From positions 44,232 to 108,231 of the forward strand of contig JACPJR010000026.1 of NCBI GenBank assembly GCA_016187565.1: a stretch of 64,000 nt of DNA. Reading direction: 5' to 3'. The position numbers and the translations under genes are program-made. The stretch is from Candidatus Woesearchaeota archaeon (GTDB lineage Archaea > Nanobdellota > Nanobdellia > Woesearchaeales > JACPJR01). A model generated the notes under the pieces. That model had not been told where the DNA came from. It ran no database searches and saw only the letters and a program-made list of their open reading frames with translations. Positions 43,417 to 52,153 of the stretch are shown in pieces; within the stretch, counting starts at the first letter, position 1, and the number at the start of each line of letters is the position of its first letter.

Positions 43417-43460
43417 AAACTATTATTAATGGGGGAACTATTTAAACATTATGGCAAAGG

Positions 43461-43493: not shown

Positions 43494-43646
43494 GCGGGGA
43501 TGCCGGAGTGGCCAAACACGGTAAGCAACTTACCTGGGTCAGACGGGACAGGCTTAGGCATTTCAAGGTGTGATGAGCCTTAGGGCAATGAAATGAAGAC
43601 ACCTGTTGGCTTAGTGCCTTCGCAGGTTCGAATCCTGCTCCCCGCA
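43494..43646 (+). tRNA. Intron-containing class II tRNA, most likely tRNA-Leu(TAG)
   Basis: Acceptor GCGGGGA/TCCCCGC with discriminator A. T-arm GCAGG-TTCGAAT-CCTGC. Variable-arm hairpin GGC-TTAGT-GCC. Anticodon stem ACAGG (43548-52)/CCTGT (43602-06) with loop CT-TAG-G interrupted after position 37 by a 42-nt intron (43559-43600) that itself forms a CATTTCA/TGAAATG helix. An extra ~25 nt (43523-43547) between the D-arm and anticodon stem suggests a second non-canonical intron. No encoded CCA. Confidence 0.7.
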
Positions 43647-43965
43647 TTCTTTTGCTTTCTCTTGCCAGCTCTTCTTCTCGATAAGCAAGGTTAGGGAAAG
43701 AATAGAGAAAACGAAAAATAACTGTTTCTATCGGGGAGGTACAAAAGGTTGGAAAGCCAAAATTCTTATCTTACAGGATTTGAAACCCCATCTACCCTTA
43801 CCAGGGAAACAATCCATTGCGAAAACTTTATAAAGGAGGATGGATATACTTTACCAAAACAGTTCAACAATAGGCGCTTCGGCGAGGTAGAGTGCTGTCT
43901 TGCCGAGGAAGACCGTACTGAAAACGATTAAAGTACCCAAAAAAATACACATGGAGGTGTAGCGA

Positions 43966-46434
43966 ATGAGGGTAAAAAAGGCGATTAGGAAAATTGCAGC
44001 CTTAGGAGCAGGAGCAACCATGCTAGGTGCAACGGTGCTCGGAGCAATGGCTGCTGATTTAAGCAACTATCCGAACCCACTATTCATCAAGGATGGTGTG
44101 TTTGATGCTGTTTTAGTTGTTGGTGATAATGCAGCAGCAGAAGACGTGGTTGGTGTGACCAACATTGCCATTGCAATGCAGGCTGCATCAGTCAAGAAGA
44201 CTCCGGTCGATACTGGAGCTGGCAGTACTACGGTTGTACAAGGTGATGCTGCCCAGATTAAAGAAAGTACTGATTATGTTGAATTTAACGAAACGTTAAG
44301 TTCGGTAAAAACCTCAGTGACCAAAACAGATATCAAGGCTTTGGCTGATGCCAATACCGGTTCTGCACTGAACACCGCAAGCGTTTCCCAGGTTATTAAC
44401 CTGCCGAATTCTACCAGAGTCATGTGGGAGCTATGGACAGATGTTAGTGATAAACCACAGGCCTATCTCAAGGTTGATGGAAGCAGTCTTGGTTACGAGT
44501 ACAAGGCAACCTTTACTCCTGCCTGGAAATCTGATCACACCACTGCCAATAGTGGAGAACTCAAGAACTTTGAGAACAAGAAGATAACCCTTTTGGGGAA
44601 GGAATACACGATAACTGATACCGACCACAGCACTACTAACAATGTAGCACTTACCTTGATGGGCGGTGCAGGAACCTTTACCCAAAAAGAAGGAACGAGC
44701 AAGACCATTACCGTAAATGGCGTTGAATATGCCGTAACAGTTGATGCAGTTGCTTCAGGACCAAAGGCCTACTTCACGGTTAATGGAGAATCAACCGGAG
44801 ACCTTGAAGAAGGAGAAACCTACCTCTTAAAAGATGGTAGTGAGTTGGGTGTAACCAATATGATTTACTATGGTTATGCATCCGAGATTGGTAATCAGGT
44901 TACCTTTACGGTTGGAGCTAAGAAAGTAAAGCTCACTGATGCCAACACCTCTAATAACAACTATGGTGGGTCCCTTGAAGTTGGTACCAACACGGTTGAT
45001 GCTGTTGGTGTTGATATCATCACCGGAACTGATGCAGGAACAACTGAAGGTGCAGACGTTACTATTAGTGAAATCCGTGTCAAATACACGCCTTCAACGA
45101 CACTCTATATTACACCAGGAACGACCATGGATGCAGCTGCTACAAAGGAAGAGGGTGAATCCGGAAATTTCTTCCTCAGTGCTTTTGATATTGACTACAA
45201 AGGCATGGACTATGGCAAGACCGAGGAAATCTCCTTAAGTGGTTCAGACAACTACTACAAGTTGAAATGGACCAACAAGTTGGGAGGAACTGCCAATGCG
45301 GAAATCTTTTCCATCAACGGAACTGGTGTCGTACTTGGATATTATTCCTCTCCGGTCAGAGACTTGGTTCTCAACGAAACAGAACCCATTGCTGATGAGG
45401 AATACCTTGTTGTTTCCAAGAACGAGTACAGCCACATCCTCCAGTATAGGGGAATAGACATCAGTAACACCCAGGCAAAGTTTGACGATGAGAACAATGC
45501 AGGCGTTACCTATGTGGGAACCTACACGGGAACAACCGGTACGGTAACTATTGATGGTAATTCCTACACTTTTGTCGTACCAAGTTCTCCGACAGCAACC
45601 TCATCGCTTACCTCGTTTGATATGAACGGTGATGGTGACTATGGTGATGTTGCAGGAGACAGTTGTTATGGTGCAACTGACGACTTGGCAGATGGTCTTT
45701 ACACCCAGTATGGGGCCTGTATTGCGTTTAACACAACTGCGGAAAACAAGTTTTCCGTAACCAGCAACCAGATGGACGATGGTTCAACCAGAGTTACCTG
45801 GAGATCTGGTAATGTCTATGTTTCCAGTAACGAACTGCAGTACAACACAACCTCACCAACCCAGGGCTCAGAGATTTACAGCTATGCCCAACTTGGTGAC
45901 TCAACGTTGTATGAGGCAGCAGACAAGTACGGAACAATCTACCAAGAGAACAGGCCAACCAGTGGTCAGAACTCTTTGAAGATTACCTTCCCGAAGCAAC
46001 AGGCAATGGGTTTGGTCTATGTCACTGCAGGAGATACGACAACCTCAACAGGAACCAGCGGCGTCAATACTGATGACGTCCAAGAGATTGGTCTTGGTGC
46101 TGTTAAATTAGCATCTGAGATAGCCAATGTCAAGGCACAGAATGCAATTGTTGTTGGTGGACCATGTGTCAACCCAGCAGCTGCTACCTTGCTCGACAAT
46201 CCAGCTGATTGTGCATCTGGATTTACTGAAGGAAAAGCGAAGATTAAGCTCTTCCAGAACGGTGACTATGTCGCTATGCTTGTTGCAGGATATAGCGCAG
46301 CAGACACCAGACGAGCAACCAATGTAGCCTCTGACTATGCAAGCTATAAGGACCAACTTACTGGTGACGAAGTTGAAGTTACCGGTACCAGCTTGACGGA
46401 CATAACCGTTGGCAAGCCAACAGTAACTGGATAA
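43966..46434 (+). CDS. S-layer protein (Methanococcus-type S_layer_N / S_layer_C architecture)
   Basis: Signal peptide KIAALGAGATMLGATVLGAMA. N-terminal block DLSNYPNPLFIKDGVFDAVLVVGDNAAAEDVVGVTNIAIAM. C-terminal block VKAQNAIVVGGPCVNPAAATLL...YVAMLVAGYSAADTRRAT. Thr/Gly-rich central region with sequons. Confidence 0.75.
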   Translation: MRVKKAIRKIAALGAGATMLGATVLGAMAADLSNYPNPLFIKDGVFDAVLVVGDNAAAEDVVGVTNIAIAMQAASVKKTPVDTGAGSTTVVQGDAAQIKESTDYVEFNETLSSVKTSVTKTDIKALADANTGSALNTASVSQVINLPNSTRVMWELWTDVSDKPQAYLKVDGSSLGYEYKATFTPAWKSDHTTANSGELKNFENKKITLLGKEYTITDTDHSTTNNVALTLMGGAGTFTQKEGTSKTITVNGVEYAVTVDAVASGPKAYFTVNGESTGDLEEGETYLLKDGSELGVTNMIYYGYASEIGNQVTFTVGAKKVKLTDANTSNNNYGGSLEVGTNTVDAVGVDIITGTDAGTTEGADVTISEIRVKYTPSTTLYITPGTTMDAAATKEEGESGNFFLSAFDIDYKGMDYGKTEEISLSGSDNYYKLKWTNKLGGTANAEIFSINGTGVVLGYYSSPVRDLVLNETEPIADEEYLVVSKNEYSHILQYRGIDISNTQAKFDDENNAGVTYVGTYTGTTGTVTIDGNSYTFVVPSSPTATSSLTSFDMNGDGDYGDVAGDSCYGATDDLADGLYTQYGACIAFNTTAENKFSVTSNQMDDGSTRVTWRSGNVYVSSNELQYNTTSPTQGSEIYSYAQLGDSTLYEAADKYGTIYQENRPTSGQNSLKITFPKQQAMGLVYVTAGDTTTSTGTSGVNTDDVQEIGLGAVKLASEIANVKAQNAIVVGGPCVNPAAATLLDNPADCASGFTEGKAKIKLFQNGDYVAMLVAGYSAADTRRATNVASDYASYKDQLTGDEVEVTGTSLTDITVGKPTVTG

Positions 46435-46540
46435 GAGCGCAACGCTCTTTTTTCTCTTTTTTTCTTTTCCTTCTTGTTGTTGTTTATCTTCATGTTCCTG
46501 ACATTCCTCTTATATGTAGGGATGAATAGTTTACGTTTAA

Positions 46541-47110
46541 TTGTCGTTGATCACCATGAAACTTCGCTCGCTGTATAGTCTGTTATCAATGGTTCTTGCA
46601 CTCTTTTTCTCTAGTTTCCTCATGCCTCAGGTAGATGGGGCTGATCTTCATGATTATCCAGATCTTTTCTTTGCTGATGGTCATTTCAATGGGCTTTTGG
46701 TGGTTGGTGATTATGCCAATGCAGCAGATGTGGTAGGTGTTACCTATGTTGCGTTGAGCTTACAGGCATACAGCAACACTGCCATTAATGTAGAGGCTGT
46801 TCGTTTGGCCTCTGAAATAACCAATGTCAGTGCCCAAAATCTGATTGTGGTTGGCGGACCTTGTATTAATACCGTTGCAGCAGAACTAATGGATTATCCA
46901 GTTCCCTGTACCAAGGGCTTCAGTCAGGGAATGGGATCTATTCAGCTTTATGAGCATCCTAATGGAAATATTGCTATTCTTGTTGCAGGATTAGAAGCCA
47001 TTGACACCAAGCGAGCAGCGCTTGTTCTGGCAAAGTACGATCAATACCAGATTTCTGGAACGAATGTTGAGGTCACGACAAGCACTGAACCACAGATTCT
47101 TATTCGGTAA
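46541..47110 (+). CDS. Minimal S-layer paralog (N- and C-terminal S-layer domains only)
   Basis: Signal peptide, then DLHDYPDLFFADGHFNGLLVVGDYANAADVVGVTYVALSLQA fused directly to AQNLIVVGGPCINTVAAEL...IAILVAGLEAIDTKRAAL; 189 aa. Confidence 0.6.
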   Translation: MSLITMKLRSLYSLLSMVLALFFSSFLMPQVDGADLHDYPDLFFADGHFNGLLVVGDYANAADVVGVTYVALSLQAYSNTAINVEAVRLASEITNVSAQNLIVVGGPCINTVAAELMDYPVPCTKGFSQGMGSIQLYEHPNGNIAILVAGLEAIDTKRAALVLAKYDQYQISGTNVEVTTSTEPQILIR

Positions 47111-47116
47111 CCTCTT

Positions 47117-47443
47117 TTACCGCAACCCATGCAGTCGCTGAACTAACTCATCAAAAATGTTCTTTTTCTTTTCACTCGATAGAGAAAATAATACTTTTTC
47201 AATCATAGCAGTCGAAACAGTAAAGATGTAGTTTAATTTAATGACACTATCCTTGAGAGCTCCATCCTTTTTTGTCAACAGTATGCCTTTCATTTCAAGA
47301 TTGCTGGTGATACCAGCGACCACTACATTATCAAATTCGCTGAACAGCACTACGGCAGGTCTTTTTTTAATCTCAAACGTATCAGTAAACTGGACATGAG
47401 CGAGAACAATATCGCCTGGCTTAGGCATTTTCCCATGCCTCAT
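47117..47443 (-). CDS. MazF/PemK-family toxin
   Basis: PKPGDIVLAHVQF...KKRPAVVL matches the PemK/MazF N-terminal consensus; 108 aa. Overlaps the upstream antitoxin by 23 nt. Confidence 0.65.
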   Translation of the reverse strand: MRHGKMPKPGDIVLAHVQFTDTFEIKKRPAVVLFSEFDNVVVAGITSNLEMKGILLTKKDGALKDSVIKLNYIFTVSTAMIEKVLFSLSSEKKKNIFDELVQRLHGLR

Positions 47444-47645
47444 CTTCTTTGTTGTCCCACAGTTCTTTCATCTTAACTTGCTGAGTTTTATGGAGAAACT
47501 CATCATATTGGTTTCTTTTCTTTATATTCTTACATGTATGAATCATCTGCTTAATCAATTCATTATAGGTCTGTCGAGGATATTCTTTCACTTCCTTTAA
47601 TGATGCTACAACGGATTTCTCAAGTTGTATAGTTGTTGCGCTCAT
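47421..47645 (-). CDS. Putative antitoxin (RHH/MazE-like) of the MazF-like toxin
   Basis: 74 aa with N-terminal beta strand TTIQLEKSVVASL followed by helices; immediately upstream of, and overlapping, the toxin. Confidence 0.5.
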   Translation of the reverse strand: MSATTIQLEKSVVASLKEVKEYPRQTYNELIKQMIHTCKNIKKRNQYDEFLHKTQQVKMKELWDNKEDEAWENA

Positions 47646-47795
47646 TATACATCACCAATAGTAGGTATATAATCAGTTATATATAAACTTTGCTTTTCTG
47701 ATGAGTGGTTGTTTTTAAATGTGTAAACAGAATAGCAAATGGAACACCAGAATTGCCTGTCCGAAACGTTTATATAGAGAAGTAACATCAACTTC

Positions 47796-47996
47796 TTGGT
47801 GAAAGATATGACAAGGACAATAACGATAAATGAAGATATTTTTCAGGAAATGATACGGAAGAAAGAAGAATTCGATGTTATTGTGGAATCAATAGAACTT
47901 ATGAATGCTCCTGAGGTGCGAGAATCAATAAGAAGGAGCAAAGAAGATATCAACGCTGGAAGAATACACAAGCTAAAGGATGTTCTCAAAAAATGA
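47796..47996 (+). CDS. Phd/RelB-like antitoxin
   Basis: 66 aa, acidic; overlaps the downstream RelE-like gene by 4 nt (ATGA). Confidence 0.5.
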   Translation: MVKDMTRTITINEDIFQEMIRKKEEFDVIVESIELMNAPEVRESIRRSKEDINAGRIHKLKDVLKK

Positions 47997-48247
47997 GTTA
48001 TGAAGTTATATTAACCGACTCTTTCTTAAAGGATGTGAAAAAATTAAAGAATAAACCACTTGAAGAGCAGGTTCTCTACAAATTACAGGAACTTGAGGAG
48101 AGTCCAGAAAGAAACAAGAAACTACAATACGAATTGAAGGATTATTATAGAATAAGAGTAGGAAAACTTCGAATTCTTTACACCATTCAAGGCAATAGAG
48201 TTTATGTTGAAGTTCTCGTCAGAGGACATAAGTACGAAGAGGTATAG
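47993..48247 (+). CDS. RelE/ParE-family toxin
   Basis: C-terminal LKDYYRIRVGKLRILYTIQGNRVYVEVLVRGHKYEEV matches the RelE/ParE consensus. Confidence 0.7.
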   Translation: MSYEVILTDSFLKDVKKLKNKPLEEQVLYKLQELEESPERNKKLQYELKDYYRIRVGKLRILYTIQGNRVYVEVLVRGHKYEEV

Positions 48248-48300
48248 GGCGGGCAATAAACCTCACATGTGTTTTTAACTGCGTCTTTCGATCGTATAGC

Positions 48301-48588
48301 TCATTTGAAGATGTCAGAAACAGACTCTATTTTAATAGTCTTTTCTTTTTTAATCTTCGCAAGTTTCTTGATAAACGCTTCCTTGAGCGGTAATTCGTCA
48401 ACAGGATGCCAGTCTATGCTCTCACAAAACGTCCAGTCGTCATCAGAAACTTCTCCGGTTTGAAGGTACTTTTCAAAAATCAGCTTCTTTCTGGTTTCTT
48501 CTTTAGCGATCTCGCTCCAATTAACCCATTCGAAATGCTTTAGCTTTTCCTTAAATTCACTGCTTATTGATAATGTTACCGATGCCAC
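48301..48588 (-). CDS. Orphan VapB-like (SpoVT/AbrB or RHH-type) small protein, GTG start
   Basis: VTLSISSEFKEKLKHFEWVNWSEIAKEETRKKL is homologous to the VapB-like antitoxin at 62306-62533 (ITLAIPEDLHTRMREHSEIRWSEVVRKTITQKI); 95 aa. Confidence 0.4.
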   Translation of the reverse strand: MASVTLSISSEFKEKLKHFEWVNWSEIAKEETRKKLIFEKYLQTGEVSDDDWTFCESIDWHPVDELPLKEAFIKKLAKIKKEKTIKIESVSDIFK

Positions 48589-48589
48589 G

Positions 48590-48745
48590 TTAGAGCGCTC
48601 CTTTATTCTTCAATTCTTCAAACTTTAGCAATTCATGTATTCTAAGCTGGAATCTCTTTTTTAGATATTCAGCTAAGTTAATTTCAGGGAATTTATCAAT
48701 TTCTTCTTTCAATTCCTTAGGTATTGATACCGTAAAGGTAGCCAT
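48590..48745 (-). CDS. Small VapB-like paralog (51 aa)
   Basis: Manual translation MATFTVSIPKELKEEIDKFPEINLAEYLKKRFQLRIHELLKFEELKNKGAL; tandem paralog of the downstream gene; not in the ORF track. Confidence 0.35.
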   Translation of the reverse strand: MATFTVSIPKELKEEIDKFPEINLAEYLKKRFQLRIHELLKFEELKNKGAL

Positions 48746-48864
48746 AGTACGAGCACCCAACTTAGTTAATACACGAGAATTCGTTTGTCTATTTAAACTT
48801 TGCTTCTTTTGAGACGTTTATCTCTCACAAAACGTCCAGTCTTCATGAGAAATTTATTTTGTGG

Positions 48865-49758
48865 TCACTTGGCATATCTATAATACATTTTCAAATATCT
48901 CTTTACTAAAGATTGTACAAAAATATAGTCTTTGTTCTTCGTCTGGCTTCTCTCGAGAGCGTTATAATAACTGTTTCGGTTTGTATACTCAATGTTTAAC
49001 ATCGGATAGCTGTGCTTATGCAATACAAAATTCATCATTAATCTTGAAATTCTTCCATTACCATCGCTAAATGGATGGATAGTTACAAATTTCAAATGAA
49101 CCAACGAAGCCAAGACTACGGGGTTTAGTTTACTTTTATTTTTATGGTACCAGCTACAAAAATCATGGAGCAAAATATCAAGCTCTGCTGGGAATGGTAG
49201 TTCTACTTTGCTTCGAGCAATAGCTACTTGATGCTTTCTTATTACCCCTGCAATATCAGGCTTGGTGTCTTGTAAAAGTAGCTTGTGCCAATAAAGTACC
49301 GTAGACAGACTTAAATCTTTCTTAGAGTCTAGCATTTCATAGAAAACTTTCCTATGAGCTTCTGCTTCTTTCACATCCTCTAGAGGCTTATTTCTGGGCG
49401 TTATGTGTTGCTGTAACAAATCAGCCGTTTCTTTCAACGACAGTGTACTACCCTCTATTCTGTTGGTGTTATACGTAAATCTAATCATAAATGATTCAAT
49501 GTGCTGTTCTCTCGCAGAAGGGGGATAGGTAGAGAAATCCTCGCTAAATTTCTTCTGAATACTCTCAAGATTTTCGTTAAATTTCTCTAAGAATAGCTCG
49601 TGCATGAATTTTTCTTTAATTAATGCTGTATTCTTAGGCTCTTCAGAACCAAGATACTTTCTTTTGTTCCTAAATCTCTTACCTTCTCTGATGGTGTGTT
49701 CGAGATAATAATAAGTCTTACCTTTAACTGTTCTTATCCTCAGGTTCACCATAAACAC
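48865..49758 (-). CDS. Fic/DOC-family protein (putative AMPylase)
   Basis: Fic motif HPFSDGNGRISR; 297 aa. Confidence 0.8.
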   Translation of the reverse strand: MFMVNLRIRTVKGKTYYYLEHTIREGKRFRNKRKYLGSEEPKNTALIKEKFMHELFLEKFNENLESIQKKFSEDFSTYPPSAREQHIESFMIRFTYNTNRIEGSTLSLKETADLLQQHITPRNKPLEDVKEAEAHRKVFYEMLDSKKDLSLSTVLYWHKLLLQDTKPDIAGVIRKHQVAIARSKVELPFPAELDILLHDFCSWYHKNKSKLNPVVLASLVHLKFVTIHPFSDGNGRISRLMMNFVLHKHSYPMLNIEYTNRNSYYNALERSQTKNKDYIFVQSLVKRYLKMYYRYAK

Positions 49759-49855: not shown

Positions 49856-52153
49856 TTAATCACAAGGTGGTCCTGGATGTGCACAATGTGTAGCAGGATC
49901 AGTAGCACTTACCGCAGCTGCTGTTGCAGTAGGATCAGGAGGTGGATCTACAGCAGTATGATCTAATGCAGCCCTCTCTTGAGCTTGTCGTTTCCAGTCA
50001 TCTCTTTCCTCTTGGGTTGGTGGATCTTTTGGTACCTCATTATAGTCCACAGGAAGTTTATCAAAGCTATAGATTTCTTCTCCACCCCATATAGCTGCAT
50101 AGGGACCTGTAGGGTAACTATCACTATCTGTGTAATAATATTTACCTTCTTTAACTCTTACCTCGTAATACTTTCCATCTGGCTGCTTGATGTACAGAGA
50201 ATTAAACTCCAAATCGCCAAACAGATCATCAAGACCAACAGCATCGGGAAGTCCAGAGTTGATGGTAATTATGTCATTCTCTGTCCTTGTCCATTCTTTT
50301 CTTGCTTCTCCTGGAGAGTTGCGGGTTTCAGCGCCAGTCTCTCCATCTGGAGCTGGTTCAGCACTTTCTTCTGCTTCGTCCTTTGTTGCATCAGCACTTA
50401 CTGCTGCTGCCTCAGGAGCACCACTCGTACCTGCAGCAGTGTCAATCGCATACCATCCATCTGGTTTCAGGGTACCTAAATCAATTGGAAATGTAACTAA
50501 CTTATTTTTATCGTTGTCCCATGCGGTTACGTCGTTGAACAGAGTTGTGGAAGTGGGATCAACACTCACTCTCATTTGATTTAGGTCATTGATGCTGGCT
50601 ATTTGACCGCCTCCTTTATTCTTACCAAGAGCGTCAAGAGGTTCTGTGGAGAAGGAGACCTGTGTTGTTGATGTTGGTTGTTTTTTTTCAGGATCTTGCG
50701 TTGTCCCTACCCATAAAGGTTGCTTATCAGGTATTCTGTTGTCATACTCGTAGAATAGCTCCTGGTTGTCAACATTGACTCTAGCTAGATCCTCTACATG
50801 ATTCTCTTCAAAGTCAAACTCTTCTGTTGTTGCCAATTGTACCTTTTGTCCTTCAATGCTGGTGTAGAGGTCTTTATACATTCCCTCTACTGCGATATCG
50901 CTCTCACCCTTCTTTTGCGTTACCTTTCCTTGTCCCAGAAGCACAGTTTCAGTGCCGGTGAAAATTGCGACTGGAGTATTTTCATCCGTTCTGAGAGTCT
51001 CTATTGCAGTTACATCTCCGTTCAAAGCCTTCTCTCCGTCAGAACCTTCTTCAACGCCAAAGAGAACCCGGAGCCCATGGTCGGGGGCATTCTCAAACCG
51101 CGTAGCCGTACCTGAAAGAGCATCGGTAGCATATGCATCACCATCTTTAATGGTTGTTTCAGTCAACGCTTGAAGTCCTTGTCGGTCACTAAATCGAATT
51201 CCAAAGTAGTTTCCTTTTCCTTTCACATCGTATTTTTTTCCATTAACCTCTGTCAGAAAGGTGAATTCAACATCCAGTGTAGAGACAATAAGATTCGCGT
51301 CAGGATTAAACGTGACCGTGGCATCATTCTTCCCGGGCTGTGCCATAATATAATCACTTTCCCGGTTAGTAAACAATTTACCTTGGATTTTCCAGTTGCT
51401 CCCTTGAGCTAATGAAAAATGTCCTTCCACGAATTCAAATCTGACTGCAGGGTGGTCAGATTCTCCTTCTACTCTACGATACGTCACCCCATCTCGGGTA
51501 ACTGTTCCAACTCCATTAATAATAAACTGATCACCTTCTAAGGTCATTGATGCTCCAGGTTCACCTCTAAATACACTATCCGTGCCTGCTACAGGAACCG
51601 TGACTTTTCCTCCTTTATCAGCGAATGTTACCTTAATTGAGTCCCCCTGCTCAGGATATCCCTCGTTAACGACAGTAATCATTGCTGCACTGTCAAACTC
51701 ACAGGTCTTTCCTTGATAGATACTCTGACAATATTTCTCGGCAATGGTTTTATCTTTCTCAGCAGTCATACCATCTGGGAATAAGGTTGATGAGGTTAGG
51801 TAGTTGTGTGCATTATTGAGGGTGTTGTCTGTGTAGGTCTCACCACTATCACTGCTTTCCAAATATCGTTGAAAGAGATCCTTATTGCTCTCACTGACCT
51901 CGGGTTTATTTTCAAAATAGGTCTTTGCATAGTCTCCTTTATAGTTGGCTGTTAACCATTTCGGACAACTCTCTGGGTTAGTTTCACACCAGGTACTAAA
52001 ATCTTCAACATTTTCACCAGTAAATTGTTGGTTTCCATCGTCAGAGTCACCCCCCCCGACATCTGTTTCTGCAGAGATGAGGGGTGAGAACACCACTAAC
52101 ACTACAAGTAACGTTATCCATAATGGTATCATCATTTGTTTCATCGTTATCAA
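49856..52153 (-). CDS. Large secreted protein (operon member H), Cys-containing C-terminus
   Basis: Signal peptide MITMKQMMIPLWITLLVVLVVFSPLISA. 765 aa. Pro/Ala/Thr-rich C-terminal tail ending CAHPGPPCD. G8 homopolymer near the 5' end. Confidence 0.6.
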   Translation of the reverse strand: MITMKQMMIPLWITLLVVLVVFSPLISAETDVGGGDSDDGNQQFTGENVEDFSTWCETNPESCPKWLTANYKGDYAKTYFENKPEVSESNKDLFQRYLESSDSGETYTDNTLNNAHNYLTSSTLFPDGMTAEKDKTIAEKYCQSIYQGKTCEFDSAAMITVVNEGYPEQGDSIKVTFADKGGKVTVPVAGTDSVFRGEPGASMTLEGDQFIINGVGTVTRDGVTYRRVEGESDHPAVRFEFVEGHFSLAQGSNWKIQGKLFTNRESDYIMAQPGKNDATVTFNPDANLIVSTLDVEFTFLTEVNGKKYDVKGKGNYFGIRFSDRQGLQALTETTIKDGDAYATDALSGTATRFENAPDHGLRVLFGVEEGSDGEKALNGDVTAIETLRTDENTPVAIFTGTETVLLGQGKVTQKKGESDIAVEGMYKDLYTSIEGQKVQLATTEEFDFEENHVEDLARVNVDNQELFYEYDNRIPDKQPLWVGTTQDPEKKQPTSTTQVSFSTEPLDALGKNKGGGQIASINDLNQMRVSVDPTSTTLFNDVTAWDNDKNKLVTFPIDLGTLKPDGWYAIDTAAGTSGAPEAAAVSADATKDEAEESAEPAPDGETGAETRNSPGEARKEWTRTENDIITINSGLPDAVGLDDLFGDLEFNSLYIKQPDGKYYEVRVKEGKYYYTDSDSYPTGPYAAIWGGEEIYSFDKLPVDYNEVPKDPPTQEERDDWKRQAQERAALDHTAVDPPPDPTATAAAVSATDPATHCAHPGPPCD

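What the first reader, a model, noticed from the sequence alone, without database searches (positions are those of the whole stretch)
43966..47110. Methanococcus-type S-layer gene followed by a 189-aa paralog made only of the conserved N- and C-terminal S-layer domains
The 822-aa protein has the characteristic conserved S-layer N-terminal block (VLVVGDNAAAEDVVGV) and C-terminal block (IVVGGPCVN...LVAGYSAADTRRAT) around a variable Thr/Gly-rich core. The downstream gene (46541-47110) has a signal peptide, then the N-block fused directly to the C-block with no core. Such a minimal paralog could act as a lattice cap or nucleator, an S-layer anchoring module, or a remnant of recombination and cassette switching of the variable core.
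Basis: partly seen in the sequence, partly recalled or inferred. Interest (0 to 1): 0.55.

Follow-up and report, generated by a model that had tools for sequence, protein, structure and literature searches.

The report
Standalone S-layer base domain gene
Next to the main cell-surface (S-layer) protein gene of a tiny DPANN archaeon sits a small, well-conserved gene that encodes only the S-layer protein's base domain, a natural copy of a construct that crystallographers engineered in 2024; it is probably an accessory piece of the cell coat.

Summary
Both genes are real, and the short protein matches the two ends of the long one (59% and 49% identity). The two "terminal blocks" are not two domains. 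They are halves of one flavodoxin-like α/β domain (Pfam PF05124), split in the long protein by an all-β insertion of about 615-625 residues. The short gene encodes that domain uninterrupted, behind a signal peptide.

Its closest solved structure is PDB 9FSA, an engineered Methanococcus voltae construct (aa 24-75 fused to 484-576), described as the dimerising "anchor" on the lattice two-fold axis.

The organism is a Woesearchaeota (DPANN) archaeon, not a Methanococcus. The short gene is not a remnant: dN/dS is 0.11, an ortholog sits in the same place in a diverged genome, at least 76 non-redundant standalone relatives exist, and trees reject a recent origin from the neighbouring gene. The core is conserved across the family, not hypervariable. 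A terminator-like site and a TATA-like box separate the two genes.

The pairing is lineage-restricted: only 3 of 63 assessable long-gene loci from other species have a short gene within 5 kb.

Best reading: a secreted, probably sub-stoichiometric accessory that engages the S-layer base. That role is inferred, not shown.

The parts
43827..43834 (+). TATA-like box (tttataaa) about 130 nt upstream of the long gene's ATG; inferred promoter of the S-layer gene
   Evidence: Read directly from the sequence. The stretch is identical in the diverged ortholog locus L001. Function is inferred.
43877..43908 (+). 14-bp hairpin in the inferred long 5' leader of the S-layer mRNA
   Evidence: strand folding of 43850-43968: -28.9 kcal/mol, z = -2.1. 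The leader is 91% identical to L001 in 100-nt windows, against 45-70% in the other non-coding windows.
43953..43959 (+). Shine-Dalgarno-like ggaggtg, 6 nt before the ATG of the long gene
   Evidence: Sequence. The same acacatggaggtg motif precedes the long gene in L001, L008 and L011.
43966..46434 (+). Long S-layer protein gene (822 aa; NCBI HYW21_07165, 'hypothetical protein', Ca. Woesearchaeota)
   Evidence: dS against L001 is 0.445, compared with 0.71-1.40 for neighbouring genes.
43966..44052 (+). Signal peptide of the long protein (aa 1-29, ...GAMA|ADL)
   Evidence: Sequence. pLDDT is below 50 for aa 1-28. Cleavage is inferred from the AXA-type site.
44053..44205 (+). N-terminal half of the split base domain (aa 30-80)
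   Evidence: BLASTP against the short protein: 59% identity. Matches A1 profile positions 13-73. Model elements E49-52 and H58-74 mirror E47-50 and H56-72 of the short protein.
44206..46077 (+). All-beta core inserted into the base domain (aa 81-704); presumed lattice-forming canopy; carries all 7 N-x-S/T sequons
   Evidence: Secondary structure of the model. Insert length is 568-708 aa in homologues. Sequon count. Conserved across the family.
46078..46431 (+). C-terminal half of the split base domain (aa 705-822)
46435..46473 (+). Terminator-like element directly after the long gene's stop: hairpin gagcg-caa-cgctc followed by T-rich runs
   Evidence: Sequence. A hairpin plus T-runs is present at the same place in all six long->short loci, with different stem sequences. 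Function is inferred.
46510..46517 (+). TATA-like box (ttatatgt) about 40 nt upstream of the short gene's ATG; inferred separate promoter
   Evidence: Sequence. Similar tttatat(t/a) boxes lie 30-45 nt upstream of the short gene in L008-L011; the L001 box is weaker.
46556..47110 (+). Short gene: standalone, uninterrupted base domain (184 aa from the ATG; alternative TTG starts at 46541 and 46547). Signal peptide aa 1-28 (46556-46639); mature domain aa 29-184 (46640-47107)
   Evidence: AF2 model pLDDT 91.2. Top PDB match is 9FSA. dN/dS 0.11.

Best explanation
The 822-aa gene encodes the main S-layer protein of a Woesearchaeota (DPANN) archaeon. It has a Sec-type signal peptide and a flavodoxin-like alpha/beta 'base' domain built from residues ~30-80 and ~705-816. 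An all-beta region of ~625 residues is inserted into a loop of that domain and presumably forms the lattice canopy. The downstream gene encodes a secreted standalone copy of the same base domain, ~156 aa when mature, with no insertion. It is an old paralog kept by purifying selection and apparently transcribed on its own. In Methanococcus voltae the homologous domain is described as the dimerising contact on the lattice two-fold axis. The short form keeps every family-wide conserved position of the base domain. The most likely mechanism is therefore that the free domain docks onto the base domain of the main S-layer protein, or onto whatever partner that base domain binds. It would then act as a probably sub-stoichiometric, lineage-specific accessory subunit that caps or modulates base contacts. 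Shown: homology, the split-domain architecture, the fold, selection, synteny and family distribution. Inferred: secretion and signal-peptide cleavage, separate transcription, lower expression than the long gene, and all of the binding and capping.
For: [quoted passage not shown] Functional gene: dN/dS 0.11, like the housekeeping neighbours at 0.06-0.14; 33 positions are identically conserved in 76 shorts and 262 long N+C domains, including DLxxYPxxF, GGPCxN and a Cys pair. Coupling to the long gene: the short gene lies directly downstream on the same strand in the window, L001, L008, L009, L010 and L011, and within 5 kb in L012. Old paralogy: 1.4-5% bootstrap support for a short+neighbour clade; matching sub-clades among shorts and longs. 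Separate expression: a hairpin plus T-runs, then a TATA-like box, in all six intergenic regions; dS 0.445 for the long gene, 0.79 for the short, 0.71-1.40 for neighbours.
Against: There is no direct evidence of any interaction, and heterodimer prediction was not possible with these tools. In an unbiased census from the long gene, only 3 of 63 assessable loci in other species had a short gene within 5 kb, so the short protein cannot be a general requirement of this S-layer type. Two standalone genes have no long gene immediately adjacent: L012 has one ~5 kb upstream, and L013 has none within 6 kb. The orientation of the domain is unsettled: Pfam names PF05124 'outer domain', while the PDB entry calls it 'cell wall anchoring domain'. 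The two-fold dimer role comes from a SymProFold model; the 9FSA entry holds a single chain. The split of all shorts from all longs has only 62% bootstrap support, and the large tree is poorly resolved.
Confidence: 0.5

Rival explanations
1. The short protein is an independent secreted protein that uses the flavodoxin-like fold for something other than the lattice, for example binding a glycan or another surface or host ligand. Its position next to the S-layer gene would then only reflect its origin by duplication.
For: After 9FSA, the next structural neighbours are the flavodoxin-like domains of the cellulose-synthase subunit BcsB and the N-terminal domains of GH115/GH67/GH84/GH20 glycosidases. 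The Micrarchaeum S-layer paper also noted weak glycoside-hydrolase homology at the N and C termini and suggested glycan binding (bioRxiv 10.1101/2021.04.28.441871). Some standalone genes are not adjacent to a long gene (L012, L013). Contiguous copies also occur inside unrelated giant proteins (P0007 1779 aa, P0023 2624 aa).
Against: Where the short gene exists, it follows a long gene in 6 of 8 loci and lies within 5 kb in a seventh. All positions conserved in the long proteins' base domain are also kept in the shorts, which argues for a shared function. The fold similarity to the glycosidase domains comes with 7-20% identity and no known shared site.
Confidence: 0.25
2. The short protein is the membrane- or envelope-side anchor of a two-component S-layer (SlaB-like), tethering the long protein to the cell.
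For: The homologous M. voltae domain is labelled an anchoring domain. How this S-layer class is anchored in DPANN is an open question, and a second protein has been proposed. Related two-domain proteins of ~400 aa carry a charged linker and a hydrophobic or amphipathic C-terminal tail (P0008-P0010).
Against: The short protein has no transmembrane segment, lipobox or sorting signal after its signal peptide. Across the family the signal peptide ends in AXA-type cleavage sites. It is missing from the neighbourhood of the long gene in 60 of 63 assessable species, which does not fit an obligatory anchor.
Confidence: 0.1
3. The short protein is an assembly chaperone or anti-polymerisation factor that transiently occupies the base-domain interface of newly exported S-layer protein and is not part of the finished lattice.
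For: The same homotypic-interface logic as the main explanation. Separate transcription and an ordinary dS suggest lower abundance than the lattice protein.
Against: No evidence distinguishes this from a stable accessory subunit. Most related species lack a short gene nearby.
Confidence: 0.1
4. The short ORF is a decaying remnant of a deletion or recombination event that removed the core, or a silent cassette end used for switching the core.
For: Superficially, N block + C block with no core is what an internal deletion would leave.
Against: dN/dS is 0.11 at dS 0.79, and the frame is intact in a genome ~15% diverged at protein level. There are at least 76 non-redundant standalone homologues of 172-219 aa. 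The short is 48% identical to its neighbour, no closer than to long proteins of other genomes, with 2% bootstrap support for a short+neighbour clade. It has its own signal peptide, unlike that of the long gene, and its own promoter-like box. The core is conserved, not switched.
Confidence: 0.03

Closest known systems
Mvol_anchor, PDB 9FSA: engineered base domain of the Methanococcus voltae S-layer protein (aa 24-75 + GGS + 484-576; Buhlheller et al. 2024, PMC11410804)
   Different: 9FSA is a laboratory construct cut out of a full-length S-layer protein; the gene here is a natural, separately encoded, secreted protein. Sequence identity is only ~27%. The DPANN versions have a conserved Cys pair (GGPC...C) where the aligned M. 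voltae motif reads GGPV.
Pfam PF05124 (S_layer_C, 'S-layer like family, outer domain') / TIGR01564 (S_layer_MJ): S-layer proteins of Methanococcales and Thermococcales, and the DPANN S-layer proteins of the MSTP-like beta-sandwich class (Johnston et al. 2024, bioRxiv 10.1101/2024.05.28.596244)
   Same: The long protein has the family's architecture (signal peptide, split base domain, beta-rich core) and passes the PF05124 cut-off. DPANN and class I methanogen S-layer proteins are reported as orthologous.
   Different: TIGR01564 is below its cut-off for the long protein, and PF05123 is not detected. The short protein lacks the whole lattice-forming core that defines an S-layer protein.
SlaA/SlaB two-component S-layer of Sulfolobales
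   Same: Two adjacent genes encoding a large canopy protein and a smaller partner, with assembly and anchoring roles divided between them (review PMC12175726).
   Different: SlaB is a membrane-anchored stalk and not a paralog of part of SlaA. The short protein here has no membrane anchor and is a copy of a domain of its partner.
SlpX, the accessory S-layer protein of Lactobacillus acidophilus, which integrates into the SlpA lattice (PMC11181022)
   Same: A minor paralogous S-layer component that enters the lattice of the dominant protein through shared, homologous interaction domains. This is an analogy for the proposed mechanism.
   Different: It is bacterial, unrelated in fold, and a full-size S-layer protein, not a single isolated domain.

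Membership tests
Pfam PF05124 (S_layer_C / 'outer domain') | HMM score at or above the gathering threshold (23.9 bits) | tested here: met
   Long 32.2 bits (aa 32-786, profile 2-171 of 177); short 52.9 bits (aa 84-165, profile 94-175).
Pfam PF05123 (S_layer_N) | HMM match to the N-terminal region model | tested here: not met
   No hit at E <= 0.01 for either protein.
NCBIfam TIGR01564 (S_layer_MJ, MJ0822 family) | Whole-protein score at or above the cut-off (25 bits), ideally covering the 571-position model | tested here: not met
   Long 23.1 bits, below the cut-off, and only profile positions 1-139. Short 34 bits, above the cut-off, but only profile positions 501-570. Only the base domain is shared.
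9FSA-type S-layer base ('anchor') domain | Sequence homology across both the N and C segments | tested here: met
   Profile of 18 standalone proteins against 9fsa_A: E 8.8e-12 over chain residues 13-145.
9FSA-type S-layer base ('anchor') domain | The same three-dimensional fold, with the N and C halves packed as one domain | tested here: met
9FSA-type S-layer base ('anchor') domain | Dimerises about the lattice two-fold axis, on the membrane-facing side | not testable with these tools
   No multimer prediction and no coordinates were available. In the literature the role rests on a SymProFold model plus a single-chain crystal entry. Pfam's label 'outer domain' conflicts on orientation.
S-layer protein proper (lattice-forming subunit) | Has the lattice-forming core domains | tested here: not met
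   For the short protein, nothing aligns to aa 81-704 of the long protein; its 156 mature residues are one domain. The long protein has an all-beta core.
MSTP-like beta-sandwich S-layer class (DPANN / class I methanogens) | Core built of MSTP/DUF1608-like beta-sandwich domains | tested here: inconclusive
SlaB-like membrane anchor of a two-component S-layer | Transmembrane helix or another membrane anchor, plus a stalk | tested here: not met
   The only hydrophobic segment is the N-terminal signal peptide, which ends in an AXA-type site. The protein ends right after the last strand of the domain.

The most novel reading that the evidence does not exclude
The free base domain is a dedicated 'lattice editor'. 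By occupying the two-fold base contact of the main S-layer protein, it would terminate or loosen the lattice locally. That could create the defects, curvature or openings that ultrasmall, host-attached DPANN cells need for growth, division or contact with a host. This would be a natural dominant-negative subunit used as a regulator of a 2D protein crystal.
Probability: 0.15. Interest if true: 0.7.

Novelty: new variant of a known kind. Interest (0 to 1): 0.42.

Why it matters
How the Methanococcus/DPANN class of S-layers is held together at its base and attached to the cell is unresolved. In 2024 it was stated that no DPANN S-layer structure had been determined (PMC11329633), and a second, unknown protein has been invoked for anchoring. 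A natural, soluble, one-domain version of the base module gives an easy experimental handle: it can be expressed, crystallised, and used as a probe or competitor. It also shows that the N and C termini of these proteins form one autonomous, evolutionarily mobile module, found standalone, in tandem, and embedded in giant surface proteins. If it does cap lattice contacts, it would be an example of a cell regulating a 2D protein crystal with a truncated paralog. The limits are that it occurs in a minority of lineages, that both proteins are already in the databases with automatic names, and that nothing about its role has been tested.

Tried and rejected
1. My first context sample, drawn from short-protein homologues, suggested a near-universal long->short operon. 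The unbiased census from the long gene showed this was sampling bias: 3 of 63 assessable loci. I dropped the idea of a general two-component S-layer.
2. The search for related loci with the standalone alignment A1 failed because it had no conserved stretch. I used the long-protein alignment A2 instead.
3. The large NJ tree of 388 domain units rooted on 9FSA is too poorly resolved to say whether the contiguous or the split form is ancestral. The basal position of contiguous forms may be long-branch attraction, so I make no claim.
4. Viral or mobile origin: one IMG/VR contig carries a full-length long gene and the phage collection gives no match. Rejected.
6. Group-specific residues between shorts and longs lie mainly in the signal peptide and at the insertion junction. 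I found no clear altered interface.
7. pI and charge are similar: short 4.35, long base domain 4.43. This gives no sign of electrostatic complementarity.
8. Literature searches for PF05124 and for descriptions of the standalone architecture found nothing, and neither did a term search of Johnston et al. 2024. The searchable library is incomplete, so this is weak evidence of novelty.
Full report
**1. What is in the sequence**

The window has two same-strand ORFs at the stated coordinates: 43966-46434 (822 aa) and 46541-47110 (189 aa from a TTG). The short one is deposited at NCBI as a 184-aa 'S-layer protein [Candidatus Woesearchaeota archaeon]' starting at the ATG at 46556. The long one is deposited as 'hypothetical protein HYW21_07165' of the same taxon, on a 129.5-kb contig.

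BLASTP of long against short aligns aa 30-75 with 34-78 (59% identity, E 4e-12) and aa 708-815 with 82-188 (49% identity, E 6e-29). Nothing from the core aligns. A profile built from standalone homologues finds only these two copies of the domain in the 64-kb window.

**2. One split domain, not two domains**

Pfam PF05124 passes its gathering score for both proteins. In the long protein a single envelope runs from aa 32 to 786 and covers profile positions 2-171 of 177. PF05123 (S_layer_N) does not match. TIGR01564 matches only the ends and is below its cut-off for the long protein.

The AlphaFold2 model of the short protein is confident (pLDDT 91.2, pTM 0.81). It is an alternating beta/alpha fold behind an N-terminal helix that corresponds to the signal peptide. 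The model of the long protein (pLDDT 83) repeats the same ordered elements in aa 49-74 and aa 713-816, separated by an all-beta region of ~630 residues.

**3. The closest known object**

PDB 9FSA is 'Cell wall anchoring domain of the surface layer protein of Methanococcus voltae (aa 24-75; 484-576)'. Its authors joined the two segments with a GGS linker after their SymProFold model indicated that this domain forms the two-fold axis, the 'dimeric anchor', of the p6 lattice (PMC11410804).

The profile of 18 standalone proteins hits 9fsa_A at E 8.8e-12 over nearly the whole chain. Foldseek with the short model ranks it first (E 4e-7, TM 0.78 normalised to the target). The short gene is therefore a natural counterpart of that engineered construct.

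The next structural neighbours are flavodoxin-like domains of BcsB and N-terminal domains of several glycosidase families. This echoes an earlier remark about weak glycoside-hydrolase homology at the termini of the Micrarchaeum S-layer protein.

**4. The short gene is functional and old**

A diverged ortholog locus (L001, Logan SRR22387810) keeps the same gene order: fumarase-like, HTH_10, Bud32-type kinase, long 821 aa, short 187 aa, PemK.

| Gene (window vs L001) | dN/dS | dS |
|---|---|---|
| Short | 0.11 | 0.79 |
| Long | 0.20 | 0.445 |
| Five neighbouring genes | 0.06-0.14 | 0.71-1.40 |

The short gene evolves like an ordinary constrained gene. The long gene shows the depressed synonymous rate expected of a very highly expressed gene; that last link is an inference.

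The exhaustive HMMER search found 2,107 clusters at 50% identity with this domain. They include many 173-220-aa proteins matched end to end, ~400-aa proteins with two contiguous copies, and giant proteins with embedded copies. The profile search returned dozens of full-length standalone proteins. Wherever a source names the organism, it is Woesearchaeota, Nanoarchaeota or Micrarchaeia.

After removing near-duplicates I held 76 standalone and 262 split-domain units. Thirty-three positions are identically conserved in both groups. They include the mature N-terminal D-L-x-x-Y-P-x-x-F, G-G-P-C-x-N, and a second Cys 15 residues later.

In a paired data set, a clade uniting a short protein with its own neighbouring long protein has 1.4-5% bootstrap support. 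The sub-clades (window+L001; L009+L010+L011) recur among both shorts and longs. The split of all shorts from all longs has 62% support. A recent deletion or recombination origin is rejected.

**5. The core is not a variable cassette**

Full-length homologues of the long protein share 33-46% identity over 98-100% of its length. Conserved positions occur throughout the alignment. Against L001, core segments are 79-89% identical, with dN/dS of 0.15-0.26.

**6. Transcription signals (inferred from sequence)**

Directly after the long gene's stop there is a short hairpin followed by long T-runs. An equivalent element, with a different stem sequence, is present in all six long->short loci examined. 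A TATA-like box lies 30-45 nt upstream of the short gene's start in five of them and is weaker in L001.

The long gene has a TATA-like box ~130 nt upstream, a leader with a 14-bp hairpin and a ggaggtg ribosome-binding motif. The two genes look like separate transcription units. Together with the dS contrast, this suggests the short protein is made in smaller amounts.

**7. How general is the pair?**

| Starting point | Short directly after a long gene | Short within 5 kb of a long gene | No long gene / no short gene nearby |
|---|---|---|---|
| From short-protein homologues (biased), 8 loci | 6 (window, L001, L008, L009, L010, L011) | 1 (L012) | 1 (L013, after a DsbA-like gene; no long gene within 6 kb) |
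| From the long gene, 63 assessable loci | 1 (L029) | 2 (L028, L039) | 60 (no short gene) |

For the second row, a scan of GTDB species-representative genomes found 393 relatives, and the best 80 loci were analysed. Sixty-three had at least 700 nt of sequence after a recognised long gene.

So the short gene usually accompanies a long gene, but most species with this S-layer protein have no short gene nearby. It is a lineage-restricted accessory and not a general second lattice component. Whether those species carry one elsewhere in the genome could not be tested.

**8. Mechanism**

Shown: homology, fold, split architecture, selection, synteny and distribution.

Inferred from sequence: the short protein is secreted and its signal peptide is cleaved. 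Family members end their hydrophobic segment with AXA-type sites, and no membrane anchor, lipobox or sorting signal follows.

Inferred from the role assigned to 9FSA and the complete retention of conserved positions: the free domain engages the base of the S-layer, most simply by pairing with the base domain of the long protein through the homotypic two-fold surface. It would act as a cap or modulator of base contacts. I put about 0.5 on this.

Rivals are an unrelated ligand-binding role (0.25), a SlaB-like anchor (0.1; no anchor present, and absent from most species), a transient assembly chaperone (0.1), and a remnant or cassette (0.03).

One caveat applies throughout. Pfam calls the domain 'outer' while the PDB entry calls it 'cell wall anchoring', and the dimer role is model-derived. 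Even the side of the lattice on which this happens is not established.

**9. Comparison with the literature**

DPANN and class I methanogen S-layer proteins have been grouped as one orthologous, MSTP-like beta-sandwich class (bioRxiv 10.1101/2024.05.28.596244). The long gene is therefore an ordinary member of a known class, apart from failing TIGR01564 and PF05123.

I found no paper describing the standalone base-domain family: searches for PF05124 and related terms and a term search of the Johnston preprint gave nothing. A 2024 study states that no DPANN S-layer structure had been determined (PMC11329633). The searchable library is incomplete, so this absence is only weak evidence of novelty.

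Functional analogies are SlaA/SlaB and, more closely, Lactobacillus SlpX integrating into the SlpA lattice.

**10. Verdict**

The most interesting reading, a natural standalone S-layer base module acting on the lattice, is plausible but untested. It applies to a minority of lineages. I class it as a new variant of a known kind, of moderate interest.

Noticed in passing
window 43494-43646 (+): Probable intron-containing tRNA-Arg(TCT) with a 71-nt intron at position 39 and a canonical T-arm (GCAGG-TTCGAAT-CCTGC). It is found only when ARAGORN is run with intron search. The default scan and Rfam both miss it. The L001 counterpart is called only at a lowered threshold and with a different anticodon, so the intron boundaries are uncertain.
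   Followed up: partly
window 43799-44198: The 5' leader, signal-peptide codons and first part of the long gene are 91-96% identical to L001 at DNA level, against 45-70% in the other non-coding windows. Synonymous divergence in codons 1-29 is 0.046, against ~0.5 further in. A 14-bp leader hairpin lies at 43877-43908. This suggests nucleotide-level constraint on the mRNA 5' end, or a recent recombination tract.
   Followed up: partly
window 44865 (and 44932): Logan contigs from six different sequencing runs (L002-L007), five of them identical to the window over their whole length (up to 12 kb), begin inside the long gene. Five start at exactly 44865 and one at 44932. No repeated 21-mer in the window explains the break. 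Strain-level variation in the N-terminal third of the S-layer gene in that population is a possible cause.
   Followed up: partly
window 43417-43450 vs L001 3328-3921: L001 has a His_Phos_1 (histidine phosphatase) gene between the kinase gene and the S-layer gene. The window lacks it, and tblastn finds no remnant.
   Followed up: yes
window 47117-49758: Immediately downstream of the short gene is a cluster of addiction or defence-type genes: a PemK/MazF toxin with a 74-aa partner, a ParE/RelE-type toxin with a small upstream partner, further small ORFs, and a Fic/DOC protein.
   Followed up: no
window 49856-52153 (-) and beyond: A 765-aa secreted protein with no Pfam or NCBIfam match. In the identical Logan contigs it is followed by further large ORFs with no or weak domain hits (343 aa with weak Big_9, 284, 313 and >900 aa). 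This may be a surface-protein cluster.
   Followed up: no
proteins P0008-P0015, P0007, P0023 (other organisms): The contiguous base domain also occurs as tandem pairs in ~400-aa proteins; the three inspected (P0008-P0010) also have a Lys/Glu-rich linker and a short hydrophobic or amphipathic C-terminal tail. It is also embedded in giant proteins of 1779 and 2624 aa. The tailed tandem form looks like a candidate membrane-tethered partner of this S-layer class.
   Followed up: no
L013 5254-6660: In one genome the standalone gene (219 aa) directly follows a DsbA/Thioredoxin_4 gene. The base domain has a family-wide conserved Cys pair (Cys103/Cys118 in the short protein), where the aligned M. voltae motif reads GGPV instead of GGPC. 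This hints at a disulfide in the DPANN versions.
   Followed up: no
loci L014, L015, L018, L022 and others: Many GTDB species-representative contigs that carry this DPANN-type S-layer gene are titled 'uncultured Methanosarcinales archaeon' (TPA assemblies), while their closest relatives are all Woesearchaeota or Nanoarchaeota. These are probably taxonomic mislabels. Similarly, the one IMG/VR hit is a 'GVMAG' contig (L094).
   Followed up: no
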